From a virus (lineage: Duplodnaviria; Caudoviricetes): 64,000 nucleotides of DNA. Positions 3,656 to 63,432 of the stretch are shown here, in pieces. A program made the translations under genes and the position numbers. The stretch's first letter is position 1; every line of letters begins with the position of its first letter. A model generated the notes under the pieces. The model ran no database searches and had not been told where the DNA came from. It worked only from the letters and a program-made list of their open reading frames with translations. The stretch covers positions 32,001 through 96,000 of IMG/VR virus record IMGVR_UViG_3300021431_000087; one strand, given 5' to 3'.

Positions 3656-4648
3656 TTAGAAAACAATGTTATTACCACCAAAGCCGTTCCAATTGCCATA
3701 GAAGCCTCCCACAAACGGAGTGGTGTTGACCACCGAAACCTGCGGGTACTCTACGTTAATGGTATTAGGAAGTTTGCACTTGATGTCATCCACTTCCTTT
3801 GCAAGACCTGCGAGCTGTGCGTTCAGTGGAGCGACAGCCTGCTGAACGACACCAGCGGTGAAGTTCTGCGATTTCAGTTGGGCGTTTTCTGCCGTGAGGG
3901 CGGTGATTTCCCTATCCTTACGGTTCGATTCAAGAGCGTCTATCTTGTTGTCGAGGGCGAGGAAGTTCCGGTTCATAGTATCGGTAAGTCCGTATGTTTG
4001 CTGACACATAGCCAACTGGTCGGAAGCCGCCTTTGATGCGATGGACTGCTGTACGCCTGCGAAGCCCTGCTGTGCTGCGACAGCGTTTGCGTTCAAGCCC
4101 TGCTGAAGCGCATTAGTCTGTTGGCACATAGCCAACTGATTCTGGCAGCAGCACTGCTGGAACTGAGCGCCAAGGCTTGCGTTTCCATTCTGGATGGCGT
4201 TAATGACCTGCAGGGCATTCATACCCTGATTTGCACTGATGGTATTCAAAGCATTCTGAATACCCTGAATCGAGGCGTTTACTAAATTGAAATCCTGCCC
4301 GAGCATGGTACTCAGCGTCTGTGTTGCCGTGCGGGAAGCCTCGCCTTGGTTGGTGATAGCCTGCATGATAAGTTCTCTACCCGTGTCATTGCTGATTTGA
4401 TTGGAGAGGAAACCTGCAGCACCGTTAACGCCACCATTACCGCCAAATCCGAACCCTCCGCCGTTGTTCCATCCGAAGATAGAAGCCACGATGGCGAGCG
4501 TGATAAGGCCTCCGATGTCATTGCCGAAACCATTACCTCCGAAGATGCCTCCGCCACCGAAGCCACCCACGGGGATAGAGAACGGAATGTTTCCGAATCC
4601 TGCATTTCCAGAATTGCTTTCCGGAATTTGATAAATTTCTGAAGCCAT
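3656..4648 (-). CDS. Gly/Asn-rich protein with TM segment, CCC motif and coiled coil
   Basis: GGFGGGGIFGG, hydrophobic LITLAIVASIFGW, QQCCCQNQ; promoter box at 4706-4713. Confidence 0.65.
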   Translation of the reverse strand: MASEIYQIPESNSGNAGFGNIPFSIPVGGFGGGGIFGGNGFGNDIGGLITLAIVASIFGWNNGGGFGFGGNGGVNGAAGFLSNQISNDTGRELIMQAITNQGEASRTATQTLSTMLGQDFNLVNASIQGIQNALNTISANQGMNALQVINAIQNGNASLGAQFQQCCCQNQLAMCQQTNALQQGLNANAVAAQQGFAGVQQSIASKAASDQLAMCQQTYGLTDTMNRNFLALDNKIDALESNRKDREITALTAENAQLKSQNFTAGVVQQAVAPLNAQLAGLAKEVDDIKCKLPNTINVEYPQVSVVNTTPFVGGFYGNWNGFGGNNIVF

Positions 4649-36388: not shown

Positions 36389-39300
36389 TCATCCACATCA
36401 AGAACTTTATACTGCAATCCCGTCAGACCTGAGCAAGTCTGCGTGCATCCTGCGCAGTATTCCTCGGCATCCTTCCTTTCATTGTAAGGATAGCCAGCCC
36501 ATCTCTTAAAGACGCCTCCTTCAAATGCACCTACCCTATACCGCATGAGTTTCCCTCCAATCCTTTAACACGGTCTCCGCCCTCTTAAAATCCATCATTA
36601 GCAAAGATTCCGCCATTCTATGTATCATTATCATTATATCCTCCTCCTTGAATTCCTTGTCACCGAGAGAATGGATTGTCTGCACGACGGCAATGATTCC
36701 CCCTGCAATTGCCATAAGACGTTTCGTATCATCCTCCGCCTCTACCTGCCGCTCAACGTCTATCAGTTCGATGTCCTCCCTTGTCATGGGAATAGGAGTG
36801 CCTTCCTCCGACATCCTATACGTCTTCACATCACATCCGTAGACTACCCTCAAGCTGTCTATCACTCCGATGCGGGACTGCGAAAGGATATCCTTACAGA
36901 GAGACCATATGTCATACGGCAGCGTCTCGGTCACTATGTCTCCTTCCCCCAACACTGAGTCCTTTATCCTTTGCAAGACCGAACTGTCAAAGTCCTCGGA
37001 GAAGTACTCCTCTGTGTCTATCTTCCATCGGTAAAGCCTTCCTACTACCTGATGCATCCAATACTCATAACGGCACATATTGCAGAATGCCATGTCCTGA
37101 AAATCCGCTATCTCTTCATTGCGGATAAAGGAGACGGGTGCGCAGACTTTCCTCAACGCCGCAAGCTTATCCATCGTCTTATTAAAGAAAACGGCAAGCG
37201 GTGACACGTCATCTATCTTATCGAAATATTCCAGTTTCATTCTATGGTATCGAATATTGTTTCTTGTCTATCCATGAATTCACTCCTTATCTCCCCCAAC
37301 GTAGCCTTCCTATACATTCGCTTTGCCGTCGCCGCATCTTCCGCACTCACGTCTTCCTCCATCAGCCTGTTTAGGGCATACATAAGATACTCACGTTTCT
37401 TTATCCTTCCATCTCCCTTGCCTACATTCAAAAGGTTTGAACTCATCCTCCATCTCTTGCATACATATGACGGAGGAACCATTCCCTCTCCCAAAAGGCA
37501 TATCCTGTTTTTATTGTCGAAGCGCTTATGCTCACAGGAGGCGCAGCATTTCTTTATAGGAATACCCATATTGTTATTCTCGTAAGGTTTCATTTTTTCT
37601 CTTTTTTATTTCTATACCCTCATCATTTTCTTTCTTGCAAGTCCATCACAGGTCACATTCGTATCAATCCCACGGGTCAGTCCTTATTGATTACATTCAT
37701 GTCTATATATGTTCCACCTGCAAAGATGGTATAAACAATCCTTCCGTTCGGTTTATCGCCCTGTTTCGATTTCTCATAAGGTCGTCGGTACTCAGGCCGC
37801 TCACACTCAGTCAGCCGCTGCGCAAGCTCATCTGCGGAAGTGTGGCTCTCCACCCATGGCATTGCCATCAGGTCAAGGTCGTGGACGGCAGAACCGTGAA
37901 TGGCTATTGCCCATCCACACTCTGCCGCCACCTTGCGATACTCCGGGAAGCGGAATATCCAGAAGATAGCATTATTGTCCTTCAGTTTCTCCAAGTCAAA
38001 CATACGTCAGTCATCCTTTTTCATTAGTTGGGCAATAAGGGCATTGGCCTACCCCGCAGCTTCACATAGTTCGTTGTACTTACTTACGGCTTTTAGATAA
38101 TCATTCAAATCTGCATAATCTTCCATTCGCGGTAGTTCTGGTTTATATTTCGGCTTGTTAAGACCCTTTACCCAGTAACAATTCAATTTCCACCAAGTGA
38201 AGTCAAAGTAAAAGTAAAGGTTGTGTTTTACCTTACGGACGGAAAGATGTGGGAGTTTTCCAAATCCGTCATGACGTACCCAGTTAATCCACATCCAACT
38301 ATCACTCTTCTTGAAATGATGATGATACAAACTCATTGTCAGTCCTCCATTTCTTTCTCAAAAGCTCGCACAATGGTAGCAATGTTCGCTTTCGATGTTT
38401 CATACTGTTCCATCACCTTTCGTAGTTTTTCAACTGCAAGATTTTTTGTTTCCTTGATGGCATCGTCTCGGTAGTACTTAAGAGCACCGTGGGGCATTAC
38501 TTCGGTTATGTCGATTTTCTTTACTAATCCACGTACGAACTTAAACCCGTTATCACGAAGAGCCTTGTTGTAGCCGCTCATAAAAGCGAAGCCGATTTCA
38601 CAAAACACTTTTGTCAACTCTCCCATCCACTTTGTGTCCCACCCATTCATCCTGCAAACATACTCGGAGTAAACGTCAGTAACTTCTTTCAAGTCCATCA
38701 TCTCGTCTATGTGAGCAGTGCGGTCTTCTATCTCGGATTCCAACTGCTTGACGGTTCTCTTTCGCATTTGTTGGACTTTCCATTCTTTGAGACTTTTGAT
38801 AAATACCATATCAATCCTCATTGAAGTTAAAGTCACCCTTGATGATTTCTTCCACGTCGTCAGCGGTGAAGTTGAAACCGTCAATGTTTCCATCTTCGTC
38901 AATATACATGACGATGTAGTCACCCCACTCACCTATACAATCGGGAACGTAACTCTCGACCGAGACAATGATGTTCTCCAACGAATCAAGGAGCTGGTAA
39001 ACACCATCGTCGCAGACCTTGTAGTGAACTCGTGCCGTCGTTCCCTTCGGCCAGTCAACAATACAACCCCTCTCTACGTCGATAGTCGGTTGCCAACGCC
39101 AGTGATCGGAGTAGATATTTGACTCAGGCTCGTCTTTCACCTTGACGGCAAACGGCATACGTGGAACGGCATTACCTTTGCATTCGTACATATCCACGTC
39201 TGGTGTTCCGTCTATGTCAGAATCTTCCCAATAATGTACTCCTGCATCAACTTTGAGGTATCGCAAATCCACTTCCCTTGTCACCTTGATCTTCGTTTTC

Positions 39301-54207: not shown

Positions 54208-55116
54208 ATGAATACTACAAAGAAGTCATTAAGCGAGCAGGTAAACGAAGTGTTGAAAAGCAGGATGAGCCGCCCCAAGAAGCAGGAGGCCATCGTAAAG
54301 CTCGGCGTTACTCCTTTTGAGGCAATGTGCCTTGTGAGGAGTTACATGCCTGCCCCACGCCCACTACCATTCTCCTACACCTTCGGGGTAGAAATTGAAT
54401 GCGTAGGATGCCGATACACCGAGTTCTTCGCAGCAGCACGCCGCAACGGACTCGAGGTGATGGATCAGGTATACTACAACCACAGGGACATCCCCCAATT
54501 CAAGCTGACCACCGACTCGAGTATCAGCGGGCACAATCCCGCCGAGTGCGTCACCCCTGCCTTGAACGGCAACGACCAAGGTTTCGAGAGCCTCAAGGCT
54601 TGCTGCAAGAGCCTTCGGGAGATTGGCGCTACGACCAACTCCTCCTGCGGACTCCACGTACACATCGGGGCTGCAAGCCTTACCGACCTTGAGTACTGCA
54701 ACGTCTTCGTCAACTACATGAGGATGGAGACCGCCATCGAGAGCTTTCTTGCCCCGAGCCGCCGGGGTAGCTACGCAAGATGGTGCAACAGCCTCCGCAA
54801 CCACGAATACGGTGTTCTTCACGCCACCACGAAAGAGCAGATGCGCTACGCCTTGAACAGCGACCGCTACCACAGGGTAAACCCCTGCGCCTACGCCGCC
54901 CACAAGACCATCGAGTTCAGGCAGCACCAAGGCACTGCGAACTACACCAAGATAAGCCACTGGGTTAAGTTCTTGGGCAAGCTCGTAGAGTTCAGCAAGA
55001 CTACCCGCCTTAACGCCGACATCAACCGCATCGAGGACATCCCTTTCTTGAGCGAGAACGATAAAGCCTACTTCTGCAGCCGCAGAGCCGAATTCGAGGC
55101 TCGTGCCGCTCGGTAA
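54208..55116 (+). CDS. amidoligase (COOH-NH2 ligase type 2) family protein
   Basis: TFGVEIE, DSSI..ECVTPAL, SCGLHVHIG, RY..VN, TIEFRQH; promoter at 54146-54153. Confidence 0.9.
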   Translation: MNTTKKSLSEQVNEVLKSRMSRPKKQEAIVKLGVTPFEAMCLVRSYMPAPRPLPFSYTFGVEIECVGCRYTEFFAAARRNGLEVMDQVYYNHRDIPQFKLTTDSSISGHNPAECVTPALNGNDQGFESLKACCKSLREIGATTNSSCGLHVHIGAASLTDLEYCNVFVNYMRMETAIESFLAPSRRGSYARWCNSLRNHEYGVLHATTKEQMRYALNSDRYHRVNPCAYAAHKTIEFRQHQGTANYTKISHWVKFLGKLVEFSKTTRLNADINRIEDIPFLSENDKAYFCSRRAEFEARAAR

Positions 55117-59585: not shown

Positions 59586-60211
59586 ATTCTATTCTTCTAA
59601 AGTTTTAACCCAAACTGTGCAACTGTTGTCATCCATACTGGTTAAATGCTTGTAGTAAAACGTACGTTCCACCACTCTATACCACTCTTGCTCCAACCTT
59701 ACGGACTCTCCGACGTTCGGAACAACGGGACTGTCCTCCGTATGGAAAATCACATATTCCGAGTCTGGGTCTTGAAAAAATACTCTCATATCTTATAAAT
59801 CATGTTCTGCCAAATACTTTCTGCTCCATCCCTCGAAGGCATCGATATTCTTGAACTTCGGATGCGCCTCTATCACATTCCCGTCAAAAGTCAACGTTCC
59901 GGCCTCCGCTCCTATGAAGCAATACTCAAAGCGTGATGCGTTCTTGCTGAATCCCAACTTGTAAACGGCATATATATCTCCATTTTCCTTCCTGTCGAGG
60001 TGCGCATGAGGTGTGCGCATATTTCTCGTTGCTGAAACTCTATGAAATCCCATATTTTCTCTTTTTCGACAAAGATACGAATAAACATCGAGAAAACAAC
60101 AAAAACTATGCTAAAGTATCTTATTGTAGGCATTTTTTGGCGATGTGTGCTAACAAAAGATAGTTAATACTAAACTGTGATTTTATATTTGAACGTTAAA
60201 TAGTTTTATGT

Positions 60212-60219
60212 TATCTTTG
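60212..60219 (+). promoter_or_regulatory. Bacteroidota -7 promoter box for the RAMP-array operon
   Basis: TATCTTTG with upstream TTTG (-33-like); divergent box at 60070-60077. Confidence 0.7.
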
Positions 60220-60274
60220 TGTCGTATTTAGTAAACGCCGCAAGGCATAGTAATAACAATTTATAACAGCGTAT

Positions 60275-60844
60275 ATGAAAACGTTAAAATTCCAAATTAC
60301 GGGTACACGGCCTTTGATGCTGAATAACCCGCGAACTGTCAACCCATTTGACAAGTATTCAAAACTATTGAAGCCGCTGACGAGCAAGCGCACCAAGACC
60401 GAGGACGACCTCATGGAGATTTCCCGCCTCAAGTTCCTTGCCAGTTTGTACGTTGACGAAAAAGGTTATTTCCTCCCTCAGGAGTGCATCGAGCGTAGTA
60501 TTATCGAAGCCGCCAAGGAGCGCAAACTCGGCAAGAAGTTTGAGCGCAGTTTCAACGTTATCGACCGTGCACCGCTTGACTTCAAGGACAACAAAAAGAA
60601 GCCTGAGCAACTTTTCGATATGGGTAATATGTACGTCGATGTCCGAGCCGTAGGCATCAAGAACGCTCGTATCACCACCACACGCGCCATCATTCCGAAC
60701 TGGAGTGCCACCTTTGAGTGCTGGTTTGACGAAACCCAACTTGACGAGAAGGAGGTGCTTGACGTGTTGGAGATTGCTGGTCTTCGCTATGGTGTCGGCA
60801 CGTACCGCCGCCTCTACGGACGATTCTCTGTGAAGAAGATTTAA
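60275..60844 (+). CDS. RAMP/Cas7-like RNA-binding protein (stand-alone, phage-encoded)
   Basis: N-terminal FQITGTRPLML, YFLPQECIERSI (IP-x-S-like) and C-terminal Gly loop GVGTYRRLYGRF; adjacent periodic RNA array. Confidence 0.65.
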   Translation: MKTLKFQITGTRPLMLNNPRTVNPFDKYSKLLKPLTSKRTKTEDDLMEISRLKFLASLYVDEKGYFLPQECIERSIIEAAKERKLGKKFERSFNVIDRAPLDFKDNKKKPEQLFDMGNMYVDVRAVGIKNARITTTRAIIPNWSATFECWFDETQLDEKEVLDVLEIAGLRYGVGTYRRLYGRFSVKKI

Positions 60845-60855
60845 CGCTTCATATT

Positions 60856-61443
60856 TGCAGAGTAGTATAGCAATGCGTAGAAGAACTCCCGTGACGGATT
60901 CCTTGCCGTGGTTCGACCCCACGGGCGGGAGCTATTCTCAGCTAAGTTTAGTAGAGCCTTGTGTAGACGAGACGAGTTTTGTTTAGCAAAGTTATGCGCA
61001 GTTTAGTTAAGACGAACTCCCACAATGGTTGTATGTAAGGTTCGATTCCTTCAGTGGGAGCATTTAGTCCAGATTCGTAAAGCACAGTGGAGTGTAGTAC
61101 AGTATGGCTCAGTTGAGAGAAGTTTAGTTCAGACCTGTACAGCAAAGACGAACTCCTATCATGGTGCAAGCATCGGTTCGATTCCGATGGTAGGAGCAAA
61201 AAGTTAAGTTCGGATTAGCAGAGTCCAGCGAAATATAGTTTAGCAGAGTAAAGAAGAACCCTCACTATGGTACAAGCCGTGGCTCGATTCCACGGGTGAG
61301 GGCAAAAAGTCCAGCAAAGACCAGTATAGCGAAGTGGTGTCTTGTATGGCTATGCAAAGCCATCCAAAGTTTAGCAAAGAACGGTTAAGTAAAGACGAAG
61401 GCAGTAACGGTTCACGTTGGGGTTCGATTCCCCGAACTGCCCA
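60856..61443 (+). ncRNA. array of 5-nt-periodic guide-like tracts separated by five mini-tRNA-like hairpins
   Basis: Tracts 60940-61014, 61066-61150, 61202-61256 and 61308-61397; hairpins 60886-60931, 61017-61060, 61153-61196, 61259-61302 and 61400-61441. Confidence 0.85.
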
Positions 61444-61473
61444 AAATGTTTAACATTTAAAACATAAGCGAAT

Positions 61474-61947
61474 ATGGAGAATAAAAAAGAATTGACGGCA
61501 GAGGTGCTTAATCCTCTGATGGCTGAAATAGCCGAAAAGTTTGGTGACGGTGCGCTCATTCCTCACGAATGGCTGCGCAAGAAGTTCGACATCAAAGATC
61601 CTTCAATGGCTGACTGCGAAAGCGAAGAGGACTTTATCGCCAGACTGCGTGAGCAGCAGTTCCTCTATATGGGGTGCATCGACCAACTGCGATGGGCAAT
61701 GCTTCAGAAAGAGCAAATGTACCTAAAGAACGAGTGGGGTGACGGATATTCCATCCTACTGCCAACAGAGCAGGTTTCTTTCGGCTACAACGAGTTTGTG
61801 AAGACCATCAAGAAAGCCACTAAAGAAGCGGATGCCATCATCAATAATGTGCGCCCCGTTCCCGACATCAACGCTGCGAAAGACAATGACATTCGTGCAA
61901 GGTTCGGGATGATGCGTGATATGCTGGCAAGCATAAAGAAAAGATAG
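61474..61947 (+). CDS. hypothetical partner protein of the RAMP-array locus
   Basis: Co-directional with the RAMP gene and array; LKNEWGDGYSIL resembles a wHTH wing. Confidence 0.6.
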   Translation: MENKKELTAEVLNPLMAEIAEKFGDGALIPHEWLRKKFDIKDPSMADCESEEDFIARLREQQFLYMGCIDQLRWAMLQKEQMYLKNEWGDGYSILLPTEQVSFGYNEFVKTIKKATKEADAIINNVRPVPDINAAKDNDIRARFGMMRDMLASIKKR

Positions 61948-61980
61948 AATAGTTAATGTTAATTTGTACATATTTTGGCA

Positions 61981-62012
61981 AGCCTGTCCGTGATGGATAG
62001 GCTCTGCTTTTT
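61981..62012 (+). terminator. intrinsic terminator closing the RAMP-array operon
   Basis: AGCCTGTCC-GTGAT-GGATAGGCT followed by CTGCTTTTT. Confidence 0.65.
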
Positions 62013-63432
62013 ATAGAAAATCTGACAATATTTGATCGTCAGACGCACCGCCTACAACCCCTCCTCTTTCAATAATCATCGTAAGGACATCTTCTGCGTC
62101 ATCATGTGCATTTCTTCCTTCCTTTCGGTAACTTTTCACGGATGAAGCGAACTCTGGCCATCGACGTTCCCAATCCACAGGAAATACAATCATATTGTTT
62201 ACTTCACAAGCCCTTGTGAAGATTCTGACATTTTTGTTGTGGTGCTGCGTGAAAGTAATAAAAGTCGTTTTGTGGTTTTCGTACTCACGACTTATACGTT
62301 CCACGTTTCTGGCAAAAGCCCTGCCTCCATTATTTGATTCAATGACACAATACCTTATCTCATATTTCGCTAAATCCTGCGCCAACATTTGTTCCGTTGC
62401 CTCTTGGCTTTTCTTTGTGTATATAACACTCGTCACGTAGTATCCATCTTTCATTGAAAGGTAGGTTATGCTACACAAATAATCCTCGCCAACATCTGCG
62501 GTGTCGCAACAACAGCACATTGTCCCCAGCTTGACGGGAGGTAAAACTTCATAAGTACGAAATGCGTGCTCATAAAGCAAGCCTTCTAAAGGCATAGGAT
62601 TTTGTTGGTATTGTGTTTGAAAAACATACGAATTGGCAGCATTTATCTTATCAAGTTCCTCAAGTGTATGCTTGTATGGCCACAGTGCTTCACGCTCTCC
62701 GTTCTCGTTTATCTGTATAACTGGCAGTGATATCACCCGCCACTCGTCTGGTTCTATTTCCTGCAAATAGCCGCAGAGGTCATGCTCATGCAAACGCTGC
62801 ATGATAATGATAATGGGTGTGTTACGGGAATTGACGCGGTTTCTGATTGTTGTTTCAAAACGTCGGTTCACACGCTCACGGACAACATCGGAAAGGGCAT
62901 CCTCCGGCTTGATAGGGTCATCGATAATGATCGCGCCACCAAAACGATACGGTTCACATTCCCTTTCGACAAGACCAGCACCGAAACCCGTAATCTGACC
63001 GAGCGTAGATGTGGCGTACAAGCCACCTCCTTGGTCGGTTTCCCACTGAGATTTCATATTCTTTCCGTAGGTGATACGGGTAGGATAGAGCCGTTGATAT
63101 TCTTCGTTTTGAACTATATTTTTTACGGCAATAGAGTTGTCTTGTGCAAGGTTGGCAGAATAAGAGAGGTGGATGAATTTGGCAGAAGGATTGACGGCTA
63201 ACCCCATAGCAATGAAGTTCTTTACTGCAAGTTCCGTTTTTCCATACCTCGGCGACAAATTAATAATAAGTTTATTACATTTTCCGTTAAGGACATCATC
63301 AAGGGCATCACAGATAAGCTTGTGGTGCCTGCCTATGATGAACTTCATGTCGTTGTTCTGCTTGAAGAAGTACCTTGTGAAGTTAAGGGAACTCTTCAGC
63401 GTCCAAGCCCTCAAAATGTCCGTGTCTGTCAT
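62011..63432 (-). CDS. terL: terminase large subunit
   Basis: Walker A SPRYGKT, IIIDDPIKP, MQRLHEHDL, YQQNP, ESNNGG, HDDAED. Confidence 0.95.
   Translation of the reverse strand: MTDTDILRAWTLKSSLNFTRYFFKQNNDMKFIIGRHHKLICDALDDVLNGKCNKLIINLSPRYGKTELAVKNFIAMGLAVNPSAKFIHLSYSANLAQDNSIAVKNIVQNEEYQRLYPTRITYGKNMKSQWETDQGGGLYATSTLGQITGFGAGLVERECEPYRFGGAIIIDDPIKPEDALSDVVRERVNRRFETTIRNRVNSRNTPIIIIMQRLHEHDLCGYLQEIEPDEWRVISLPVIQINENGEREALWPYKHTLEELDKINAANSYVFQTQYQQNPMPLEGLLYEHAFRTYEVLPPVKLGTMCCCCDTADVGEDYLCSITYLSMKDGYYVTSVIYTKKSQEATEQMLAQDLAKYEIRYCVIESNNGGRAFARNVERISREYENHKTTFITFTQHHNKNVRIFTRACEVNNMIVFPVDWERRWPEFASSVKSYRKEGRNAHDDAEDVLTMIIERGGVVGGASDDQILSDFL

What the first reader, a model, noticed from the sequence alone, without database searches (positions are those of the whole stretch)
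61308..61397. Tract 4 decodes to a terminase motif with the wobble base skipped
NN series: CC AA CC AT GA GG CT AT TA AA CA AA TT AA AC TA AA (terminal constant CG excluded). Read as codon positions 1-2 it gives P-K/N-P-I/M-E/D-G-L-I/M-Y-K/N-H/Q-K/N-F/L-K/N-T-Y-K/N. The neighbouring terL reads PMPLEGLLYEHAFRTYE (62548-62598, minus; CC AT CC TT GA GG TT CT TA GA CA GC TT CG AC TA GA). That is 9/17 identical dinucleotides and 10 compatible residues, in codon register. My rough uniform-base estimate of such a hit anywhere in the window is about 0.03. Inference: the guide targets terL of a related phage, not self, and is insensitive to synonymous escape.
Basis: partly seen in the sequence, partly recalled or inferred. 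Interest (0 to 1): 0.93.

Follow-up and report, generated by a model that had tools for sequence, protein, structure and literature searches.

The report
VIPR guide RNA aimed at terminase
The 90-base tract is a guide RNA of a phage VIPR system, a CRISPR-like RNA-guided gene silencer first described in 2026 preprints.

Summary

- **What the locus is.** Window 60275-61947 is a VIPR locus: a vipr gene (E 1e-28 to the solved SUSP1 Vipr protein), guide RNAs built from AG-Y-NN pentamers, each ending in a tRNA-like minihelix, and a vap gene.
- **Published rule.** The 2026 bioRxiv VIPR papers show that the NN pairs read target DNA with one base skipped, usually the codon wobble base.
- **Self match.** Tract 4 (61308-61397) matches the phage's own terL at 9/17 dinucleotides and 24/34 bases (71%). 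The shuffle p is about 0.027, suggestive only.
- **Outside evidence, which decides it.**
  - The first nine NN pairs, searched exactly in IMG/VR, hit 36 contigs. All 36 hits lie in frame in TerL homologues at the motif PKP[M/I]EGLMY. A 2-nt-gap control found none.
  - Sister phages without VIPR match at 28-29/34 (82-85%), above the published 80% threshold.
  - A second VIPR-carrying sister keeps the same guide in a form that matches those terL genes at 31-32/34 (91-94%) and its own at 26/34.
- **What is unusual.** The scaffold is AGY rather than GGY, with matching changes in Vipr (N17, T176), and the tails are tRNA-like.
- **Earlier in this scan.** The scan has already found VIPR guides and tRNA-like tails in at least 12 other genomes.

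The parts
60187..60219 (+). Candidate Bacteroidota-type promoter (TTTG, 20 nt, TATCTTTG) upstream of vipr
   Evidence: Read directly. It matches the TTTG / TAnnTTTG consensus recalled from my own knowledge and was not tested. The sigma-70 scan found nothing convincing here.
60275..60844 (+). vipr gene: 189-aa Cas7-like RAMP, homologue of SUSP1 Vipr
   Evidence: phmmer against PDB 36pp_D 'SUSP1 Vipr protein' gives E 1.1e-28 over residues 1-187; the profile gives E 3.8e-55. AlphaFold model pLDDT 94. Foldseek top hits are Cmr4/Csm3/Cas7. PHROG 4652.
60845..60932 (+). Short degenerate pentamer stretch (about 5 units) and the first tRNA-like minihelix (60886-60932)
60933..61061 (+). vrRNA 1: 14 AG-Y-NN units plus AGACG-AA junction (to 61016) and tRNA-like tail (61017-61061)
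61062..61197 (+). vrRNA 2: 16 units plus junction (to 61152) and tRNA-like tail (61153-61197)
   Evidence: Best 1-nt-skip self hit is 22/32 at window 54569 (minus strand), p 0.05.
61198..61303 (+). vrRNA 3: 10 units plus AGAAG-AA junction (to 61258) and tRNA-like tail (61259-61303)
61304..61399 (+). vrRNA 4 guide tract (the finding): 17 variable units at 61308-61392, constant AGACG at 61393-61397, then AA
   Evidence: Target evidence.
61400..61443 (+). tRNA-like tail of vrRNA 4: acceptor-like stem, linker with conserved GG, T arm with GGTTCGATTCC loop region, no anticodon arm
   Evidence: Covariation: 92.8% of cells paired against about 50% in slid controls, and 12 of 13 pairs carry compensatory changes. 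ARAGORN finds 0 tRNAs. Rfam has no tRNA hit; the best sub-threshold hit is mascRNA, E 0.24.
61474..61947 (+). vap accessory gene (157 aa)
   Evidence: BLASTP E 5e-9 to the gene that follows vipr in Felixounavirus wV8. PHROG 5926. The same gene follows vipr in relatives.
61981..62003 (+). Terminator-like hairpin that ends the vipr-array-vap unit
62548..62598 (-). Own terL site partly matched by guide 4 (24/34 = 71%), encoding PMPLEGLLYEHAFRTYE; terL itself is 62011-63432 (minus strand)

Best explanation
Window 60275-61947 is a phage VIPR (Viral Interference Programmable Repeat) locus, and tract 4 is one of its four full guide RNAs (vrRNAs).

By analogy with the SUSP1 system (published, not tested here), one Vipr protomer binds each pentamer. 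It holds the constant trinucleotide (here A-G-Y) and presents the two variable bases. The filament then pairs those NN bases with double-stranded DNA, skipping every third target base, and represses transcription.

The NN series of tract 4 spells codon positions 1-2 of a conserved motif in the nuclease domain of the large terminase. It matches the terL of sister phages that lack VIPR better than the phage's own terL. The guide is therefore most likely a weapon against co-infecting relatives, blocking their packaging enzyme whatever synonymous codons they use.

The tRNA-like minihelices between tracts most likely let host tRNA-processing enzymes (RNase P / RNase Z) cut the operon transcript into single guides, and may also cap their 3' ends. 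This step is inferred.
For: - **Protein.** Vipr homology to a solved structure, a RAMP/Cas7 fold, and a vap homologue downstream.
- **Array.** Clean AG-Y-NN register in four tracts of 10-17 units, unique in the genome. The same vipr-array-vap layout occurs in IMG/VR relatives and in Felixounavirus wV8.
- **Published rule.** NN pairs with a 1-nt skip, wobble-aligned; natural targets are called at 80% NN match or more, and no self hit reaches that.
- **Target.**
  - 36/36 exact IMG/VR hits of the 5' nine NN lie in frame in TerL homologues. The 2-nt-gap control gave 0 hits.
  - Sister genome G001 is syntenic at 85-97% nucleotide identity and has no vipr. It matches at 28/34 with the 1-nt skip only; the null maximum was 24 in 300 shuffles.
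  - Other VIPR-less siblings match at 26-29/34. VIPR carriers (window, L208) match at 24/34, and the vap-only contig L209 at 23/34.
  - The orthologous guide of L208 matches VIPR-less siblings at 31-32/34 and its own terL at 26/34.
- **Guide turnover.** Tract 4 is the only guide conserved between the window and L208; tracts 1-3 are completely different.
- **Scaffold.** N17 and T176 replace the G1-reading H17 and D177 of SUSP1 Vipr. N17 clades use AG and the H17 clade uses GG.
Against: - No perfect target for the window's own version of the guide was found. Units 10 and 12 (AA, AA) fit no TerL among 120 homologues, nor any hit in IMG/VR, metagenome or genome contigs. This copy may be drifting, or may track an unsampled variant.
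- In SUSP1, changing GGY to AGY abolished silencing. Activity of an AGY scaffold therefore rests on the co-varying Vipr residues and is untested.
- The contrast between VIPR carriers and non-carriers rests on few and closely related phages, so one ancestral change could explain it.
- Divergence of the own terL site at read positions (9 differences in 17 codons) lies only in the top 14% of windows along the gene.
- Nothing here shows expression, processing, RNP formation or silencing.
Confidence: 0.88

Rival explanations
1. The terL resemblance is chance: a 17-unit degenerate pattern finds a partial match somewhere in any 124-kb genome.
For: The self match alone is weak. About 2.7% of shuffled guides reach 24/34. 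At dinucleotide level 8-16% of shuffles reach 9/17, and the 0-nt-gap control also gave one 9/17 hit. Four guides were examined.
Against: All 36 exact IMG/VR hits of the 5' half lie in TerL homologues at the same in-frame motif, while three other 18-base patterns gave 0 hits each. Siblings match at 28-32/34, and no shuffle out of 2000 reaches 28 in the window's own 124-kb genome.
Confidence: 0.01
2. The guide acts on the phage's own terL, which lies only about 600 bases downstream, as a timing or dosage regulator of packaging. It is not aimed at rivals.
For: The own terL is the best hit in the own genome. The locus sits next to terL in the window and in L208.
Against: The own site matches at only 71% (76% for L208's guide), below the 80% used for natural targets, and the papers found no self hits above that. 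VIPR-less relatives match better in five of six cases. Both bases are wrong in two own-site units, including unit 14 near the 3' end, where R-loop formation starts in SUSP1.
Confidence: 0.06
3. The window's copy of guide 4 is a decaying relic. It once targeted sibling terL, as L208's copy still does, but has accumulated three changes in read bases and degenerate scaffolds (TG, GG, TC in units 7-10 and 12) and no longer works.
For: The match to siblings falls from 91-94% for the L208 version to 82-85% for the window version. Several scaffold units are non-canonical, and units 8-12 can form a 6-bp hairpin.
Against: 82-85% is still above the published threshold. The papers describe internal scaffold degeneracy as frequent in working vrRNAs, and most of the same degenerate scaffolds (units 7-10) are present in L208's well-matching copy. 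The two changed units could instead track an unsampled terL variant.
Confidence: 0.2
4. The period-5 tract is not a guide. It is a binding platform for a ring-shaped or polymeric RNA-binding regulator, as TRAP binds NAG triplets with 2-nt spacers, or an R-loop-prone origin element. These were my first ideas.
For: The constant AG every five bases and the C-poor composition fit such sites. In wV8 and Gordonia phage Trine the gene pair lies among replication genes.
Against: The neighbouring protein is a Vipr homologue with a solved structure bound to just such RNA. The variable bases carry target information, which a simple binding platform would not.
Confidence: 0.01

Closest known systems
Type II VIPR system of Escherichia phage SUSP1 (Vipr, vap1, four vrRNAs; bioRxiv 10.64898/2026.04.26.720920, 10.64898/2026.04.26.720927, 10.64898/2026.10.15.759431; PDB 36pp)
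   Same: Homologous Vipr (37% identity, E 1e-28) and a homologous accessory gene right after it. Guides are tandem pentamers with a constant trinucleotide and two variable bases, followed by a conserved structured tail. The 1-nt-skip, wobble-aligned match is to a protein-coding gene of a competing element. The own genome stays below the 80% match.
   Different: The scaffold is A-G-Y (74-77% A at position 1) instead of G-G-Y, with N17 and T176 in place of the G1-reading H17 and D177. The tail is a tRNA-like minihelix instead of a pseudoknot. All guides sit between vipr and vap. The host is probably a Bacteroidota bacterium. The target is the large terminase of sister phages, not a satellite's recombinase.
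Non-canonical VIPR arrays (NNNGG, YNNNG, NNNNG in 10.64898/2026.04.26.720920; WGT/NN, TGH/NN, GAC/NN in 10.64898/2026.10.21.760802)
   Same: Period-5 arrays beside a Vipr-like fold whose fixed trinucleotide departs from GGY. WGT/NN covers the AGT units seen here.
   Different: Those reports, as far as their text can be read, give motifs and neighbouring folds only. They give no targets, no link between the motif and Vipr residues, and no tRNA-like tails: the word tRNA is absent from the three VIPR papers, and 'tRNA-like' from the fourth.
Hammerhead-ribozyme-interspersed VIPR arrays (type I and V; 10.64898/2026.04.26.720920, fig. S19 legend)
   Same: A structured RNA element between successive guides that can separate them without a Cas6-like enzyme.
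   Different: Here the separator is a tRNA mimic that would rely on host RNase P / RNase Z, not on self-cleavage. This is inferred and not shown.
Class 1 CRISPR backbone (Cas7 / Csm3 / Cmr4 on crRNA)
   Same: Same RAMP fold (Foldseek probability 1.00). One protomer binds per fixed stretch of guide, and a thumb interrupts pairing periodically.
   Different: The period is 5 with only 2 bases read, instead of 6 with 5 read. There are no CRISPR repeats and no cas1/cas2. Guides are hard-wired in a phage genome.
tRNA-like 3' processing signals (MALAT1 mascRNA, MHV68 tRNA-miRNA units, engineered tRNA-gRNA arrays)
   Same: An acceptor stem plus T arm placed next to a functional RNA, so that tRNA enzymes can cut it out. 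The weak Rfam hit is to mascRNA (E 0.24, far below the gathering score).
   Different: There is no sequence membership. The context is bacterial and phage. Cleavage has not been demonstrated.

Membership tests
VIPR system | Vipr protein: a small RAMP (RRM core, G-loop, thumb) homologous to described Vipr | tested here: met
   phmmer E 1.1e-28 and profile E 3.8e-55 to PDB 36pp 'SUSP1 Vipr protein' over the full length. pLDDT 94. Cas7-family chains top the Foldseek list. R137 and R178 align with the published G2 and Y3 contacts R138 and R179.
VIPR system | vrRNA: at least 4 tandem 5-nt units with a conserved trinucleotide and hypervariable NN, next to vipr | tested here: met
   Four tracts of 10-17 units in one register; G at position 2 in 88% of called units and A at position 1 in 74% (77% under the stricter call). 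NN is hypervariable between near-identical loci: tracts 1-3 of the window and of L208 are unrelated although Vipr is 99.5% identical.
VIPR system | Conserved structured 3' tail after each tract | tested here: met
   A covarying minihelix follows every tract, but it is tRNA-like and not the SUSP1 pseudoknot.
VIPR system | Accessory vap gene in the same unit | tested here: met
   The 157-aa gene is homologous (E 5e-9) to the gene after vipr in Felixounavirus wV8 and is conserved in this position in relatives.
VIPR system | NN series matches natural targets at 80% or more under the 1-nt-skip rule, not under other gaps, with no such self hit | tested here: met
   Sibling terL matches at 28-29/34 (82-85%), and at 31-32/34 for L208's orthologous guide. 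Self is 71-76%. Gaps 0, 2 and 3 are null-like. 36/36 exact 5'-half hits lie in TerL, and the 2-nt-gap control gave 0 hits.
VIPR system | Vipr-vrRNA filament binds DNA and silences transcription | not testable with these tools
   This needs sRNA-seq, a pull-down and a reporter assay. It is known only for the SUSP1 and P. fulva systems.
Canonical GGY-reading (SUSP1-like) Vipr | G1 of the repeat read by H17 and D177; repeat consensus GGY | tested here: not met
   The window protein has N17 and T176 (and Y177 in place of W178). Position 1 of the repeat is A in 74-77% of units. In SUSP1, GGY>AGY abolished silencing. This is therefore a specificity variant and not a canonical member.
tRNA | Cloverleaf with anticodon arm, recognised by tRNA finders | tested here: not met
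   ARAGORN finds 0 genes in the window. There is no Rfam tRNA match even at E 10. Only 11-14 nt lie between the acceptor strand and the T arm.
CRISPR-Cas | Repeat-spacer array of 60-80 nt period with cas1/cas2 adaptation genes | tested here: not met
   Tandem repeat and ORF scans show no such array near the locus. Only the RAMP fold is shared.

The most novel reading that the evidence does not exclude
This clade may be a distinct and so far undescribed VIPR design. Its Vipr would have switched scaffold specificity from G to A at repeat position 1 through H17N and D177T. Its guides would be released by host tRNA-processing enzymes at tRNA-mimic separators. One of its guides would be held under selection against the terminase of VIPR-less sister phages, while the carrier's own terL is changed at the read positions. 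The two-unit difference between the window's and L208's copies would then be a snapshot of guide-target co-evolution and not decay.
Probability: 0.3. Interest if true: 0.55.

Novelty: new member of a known kind. Interest (0 to 1): 0.4.

Why it matters
This locus gives a natural worked example of the VIPR code outside the Enterobacteria and Pseudomonas systems studied so far.

- **Target type.** The guide is aimed at an essential, conserved packaging gene of close relatives. Relatives that carry the system have an own copy that escapes; relatives that lack it do not.
- **Natural variants.** It supplies an AGY scaffold with matching changes at the two published G1-contact positions, and tRNA-like tails. 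Both could be useful for understanding or engineering the system.
- **Limit.** It does not change what is known about how VIPR works.

Tried and rejected
- **First ideas dropped.** I first read the tracts as a TRAP-like protein-binding platform, then as an R-loop or origin element because homologues sit among replication genes. I dropped both once the PDB sequence search named the neighbouring protein.
- **No annotation for the RNA or proteins.** ARAGORN and Rfam found nothing. Pfam found nothing for vipr or vap. blastn of the array against annotated phages found nothing.
- **No perfect target for the window's guide 4.**
  - The middle ten NN pairs gave 0 exact hits in IMG/VR.
  - In metagenome and genome contigs they gave only out-of-frame chance hits, in a Thermotogaceae and a Woesearchaeota MAG.
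  - No TerL among the best 120 homologues has Y-[K/N]-[H/Q]-[K/N]-F.
- **Other guides.**
  - The 5' nine-NN patterns of tracts 2 and 3 gave 0 IMG/VR hits.
  - Tracts 1-3 of the window have no hit above the null in the sister genome G001; tract 2 reaches only 22/32 (p 0.05) there.
  - L208's tracts 1 and 2 have no hit above the null in G000 or G001. Its tract 3 was parsed out of register, so it was not properly tested.
- **Weak or confounded tests.** The own terL site is not unusually diverged: it lies in the top 14% of windows only. My G-only tract caller is unreliable in high-GC loci, so the residue-versus-motif comparison rests on the low-GC clades.

Full report
**The observation.** The terL segment at 62548-62598 (minus strand) translates to PMPLEGLLYEHAFRTYE. 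It shares 9 of 17 dinucleotides, or 24 of 34 bases, with the series, with the skipped base on the wobble position. This is the best 1-nt-skip hit in the whole 124-kb genome. Of 2000 shuffled guides, 2.7% do as well, and gaps of 0, 2 or 3 bases give only null-like 21/34. With four guides examined, the self match alone is suggestive and not significant. The period-5 AG signal is real and occurs only at 60920-61417 in the genome.

**Anatomy of the locus.** The intergenic stretch 60845-61473 lies between a 189-aa gene (60275-60844) and a 157-aa gene (61474-61947), all on the plus strand. A terminator-like hairpin follows at 61981-62003. The stretch holds a short degenerate tract and four full tracts of 14, 16, 10 and 17 variable units. 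Each tract ends in a constant AGA(C/A)G-AA junction followed by a 44-47 nt element. That element has an acceptor-like stem of 7-8 pairs, an 11-14 nt linker with an invariant GG, and a 5-bp T arm with a TTCGAWY-type loop. It has no anticodon arm. Across 26 distinct copies from this and related phages, 92.8% of stem cells pair, against about 50% when partners are slid, and 12 of 13 pairs show compensatory changes. ARAGORN and Rfam do not call these elements tRNAs. The best sub-threshold Rfam hit is mascRNA, itself a tRNA-like processing signal, but at E 0.24 it is only an analogy.

**Identification.** A profile of the 189-aa protein and 26 homologues matches one solved structure, PDB 36pp 'SUSP1 Vipr protein', at E 3.8e-55. 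The window protein alone matches at E 1.1e-28 over its full length. The AlphaFold model (pLDDT 94) finds Cas7-family backbone proteins (Cmr4, Csm3, type VII Cas7) as its best structural neighbours.

Four 2026 preprints describe the system:
- VIPR loci consist of Vipr, an accessory vap gene, and vrRNAs made of GGY/NN pentamers with a structured tail.
- Vipr protomers each hold one GGY and expose NN.
- NN pairs with double-stranded DNA while every third target base is skipped, usually the wobble base.
- Natural targets, called at 80% NN match or more, are competing phages and satellites. No self hit reaches 80%.

The 157-aa gene is homologous to the gene that follows vipr in Felixounavirus wV8 (E 5e-9).

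**Is terL the target?** I searched IMG/VR for exact matches to the first nine NN pairs joined by single wildcards. There were 36 hits. All 36 lie inside homologues of this phage's TerL (30-61% amino-acid identity), in frame, at the homologous site, and encode PKP[M/I]EGLMY. The same nine pairs with 2-nt gaps gave no hit, and two other 18-base patterns also gave none. The tract does spell a terminase motif.

**Which terL?**
- IMG/VR contig 3300028048_003164 (G001) is a sister phage, syntenic at 85-97% nucleotide identity along the genome, with TerL 89% identical. It has no vipr. The interval corresponding to window 60124-62096 is filled there by a Hint/intein segment in a longer TerL reading frame.
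- Guide 4 matches G001's terL at 28/34 (82%) under the 1-nt skip only. The best of 300 shuffles was 24.
- A search of 5.8 billion proteins gave 29 TerL at 72-93% identity. Most carry P[T/K]PMEGLMYEHPFKTY, which fits the guide better than the window's own variant does.
- I fetched contigs for seven of these TerL proteins.
  - L208 carries VIPR (Vipr 99.5% identical) and has the window's own terL motif. It matches at 24/34.
  - L209 has vap only and matches at 23/34.
  - The VIPR-less contigs L210, L211/L212, L213 and L214 match at 26, 29, 28 and 28.
  - L215 also matches at 28, but that contig ends just after terL.

**The sister's copy of the guide.** Between the window and L208 the tails are almost identical, but tracts 1-3 are unrelated. 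Tract 4 is conserved except for a few changes. L208's copy has GA and CC where the window has AA and AA (units 10 and 12). With these it matches VIPR-less sibling terL at 31-32 of 34 (91-94%) and its own terL at 26/34. This guide lineage is therefore directed at the terL of relatives, and carriers have a terL that falls below the published threshold.

**Caveats on the target claim.**
- No perfect target for the window's own version was found anywhere.
- The contrast between carriers and non-carriers rests on few and closely related phages.
- The own site is not exceptionally diverged compared with the rest of the gene.

**What differs from the described systems.**
- *Scaffold.* The scaffold is AGY, with A at position 1 in 74-77% of units. 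In SUSP1, GGY>AGY abolished silencing. There G1 is read by H17 and D177, and the window protein has N17 and T176 at those positions. Among low-GC relatives, the three N17 groups use AG (72-100% A), while the H17 group uses GG (53-68% G). This fits a specificity switch but rests on few independent lineages. Non-GGY motifs, including WGT/NN, are already reported.
- *Tails.* The tails are tRNA-like. The word tRNA does not occur in the text of the three VIPR papers, nor 'tRNA-like' in the fourth; supplements were not held.
- *Likely role of the tails.* In the L037 clade a minihelix follows the vipr stop codon with no tract before it, and the guide after vap ends in a plain terminator hairpin. This favours a role as cutting signals for host RNase P / RNase Z over an obligatory Vipr-binding cap. 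That role is inferred.

**Verdict.** The tract is a real, well-supported VIPR guide against the large terminase of sister phages. The kind of system and its code were published in 2026, and this scan has already reported VIPR guides and tRNA-like tails in at least 12 other genomes. I file it as a new member of a known kind with some variant features.

Noticed in passing
window 60935-61256 compared with L208:6956-7622 (minus strand): Tracts 1-3 are completely different between two phages whose Vipr is 99.5% identical and whose tails are near-identical. Only tract 4 is shared. Guides appear to be exchanged as cassettes between conserved tails; the mechanism of guide renewal is unknown.
   Followed up: partly
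window 60124-62096 compared with G001 37721-38782 (L200): The VIPR locus is absent from the sister phage. There the interval is occupied by a Hint/intein segment inside a 795-aa TerL reading frame. Several other siblings also have about 790-aa TerL with Hint or intein domains.
   Followed up: partly
window 61066-61150 (tract 2) and 54520-54569 (minus strand): Guide 2 has its best 1-nt-skip hit (22/32, p 0.05, wobble register) in the phage's own amidoligase-region gene, and the same score in G001. No target at 80% or more was found, and the 5' nine-NN pattern has 0 hits in IMG/VR.
   Followed up: partly
L209:3516-3989: A sibling contig has a vap homologue (70% identity) next to terL, but no vipr or array in its 5.7 kb. 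Its terL motif (PRPAEGLLYEHPFRTYE) is also a poor match to the guide. It may be a decayed VIPR locus.
   Followed up: no
window 61343-61362: Units 8-12 of tract 4 can form a 6-bp hairpin (ATGGCT / AGCCAT). They coincide with the non-canonical scaffolds TG, GG, TG and TC. The same hairpin is kept in L208.
   Followed up: no
L063:3540-5000: A 65% GC phage has the same design with GGC-NN units: at least eight tracts, each followed by a tRNA-like minihelix, on both sides of vap. tRNA-like tails are therefore not confined to the low-GC clade.
   Followed up: partly
L037:3582-3626 and 4270-4395; L040: In this clade a tRNA-like element directly follows the vipr stop codon with no tract before it, and an extra guide after vap ends in a terminator hairpin without a tRNA-like tail.
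   Followed up: no
L085 (Escherichia phage wV8) 3200-3430 and 4590-4830: The annotated 58-bp 'DR_4' direct repeats of wV8 cover the pseudoknot tails of GGT-NN vrRNAs that flank vipr (gp096) and vap (gp095). The record lists both genes as hypothetical.
   Followed up: partly
PHROGs gave no hit here, but the 164-aa gene in sibling L213 (5476-5970) carries PF02664 LuxS.
   Followed up: partly
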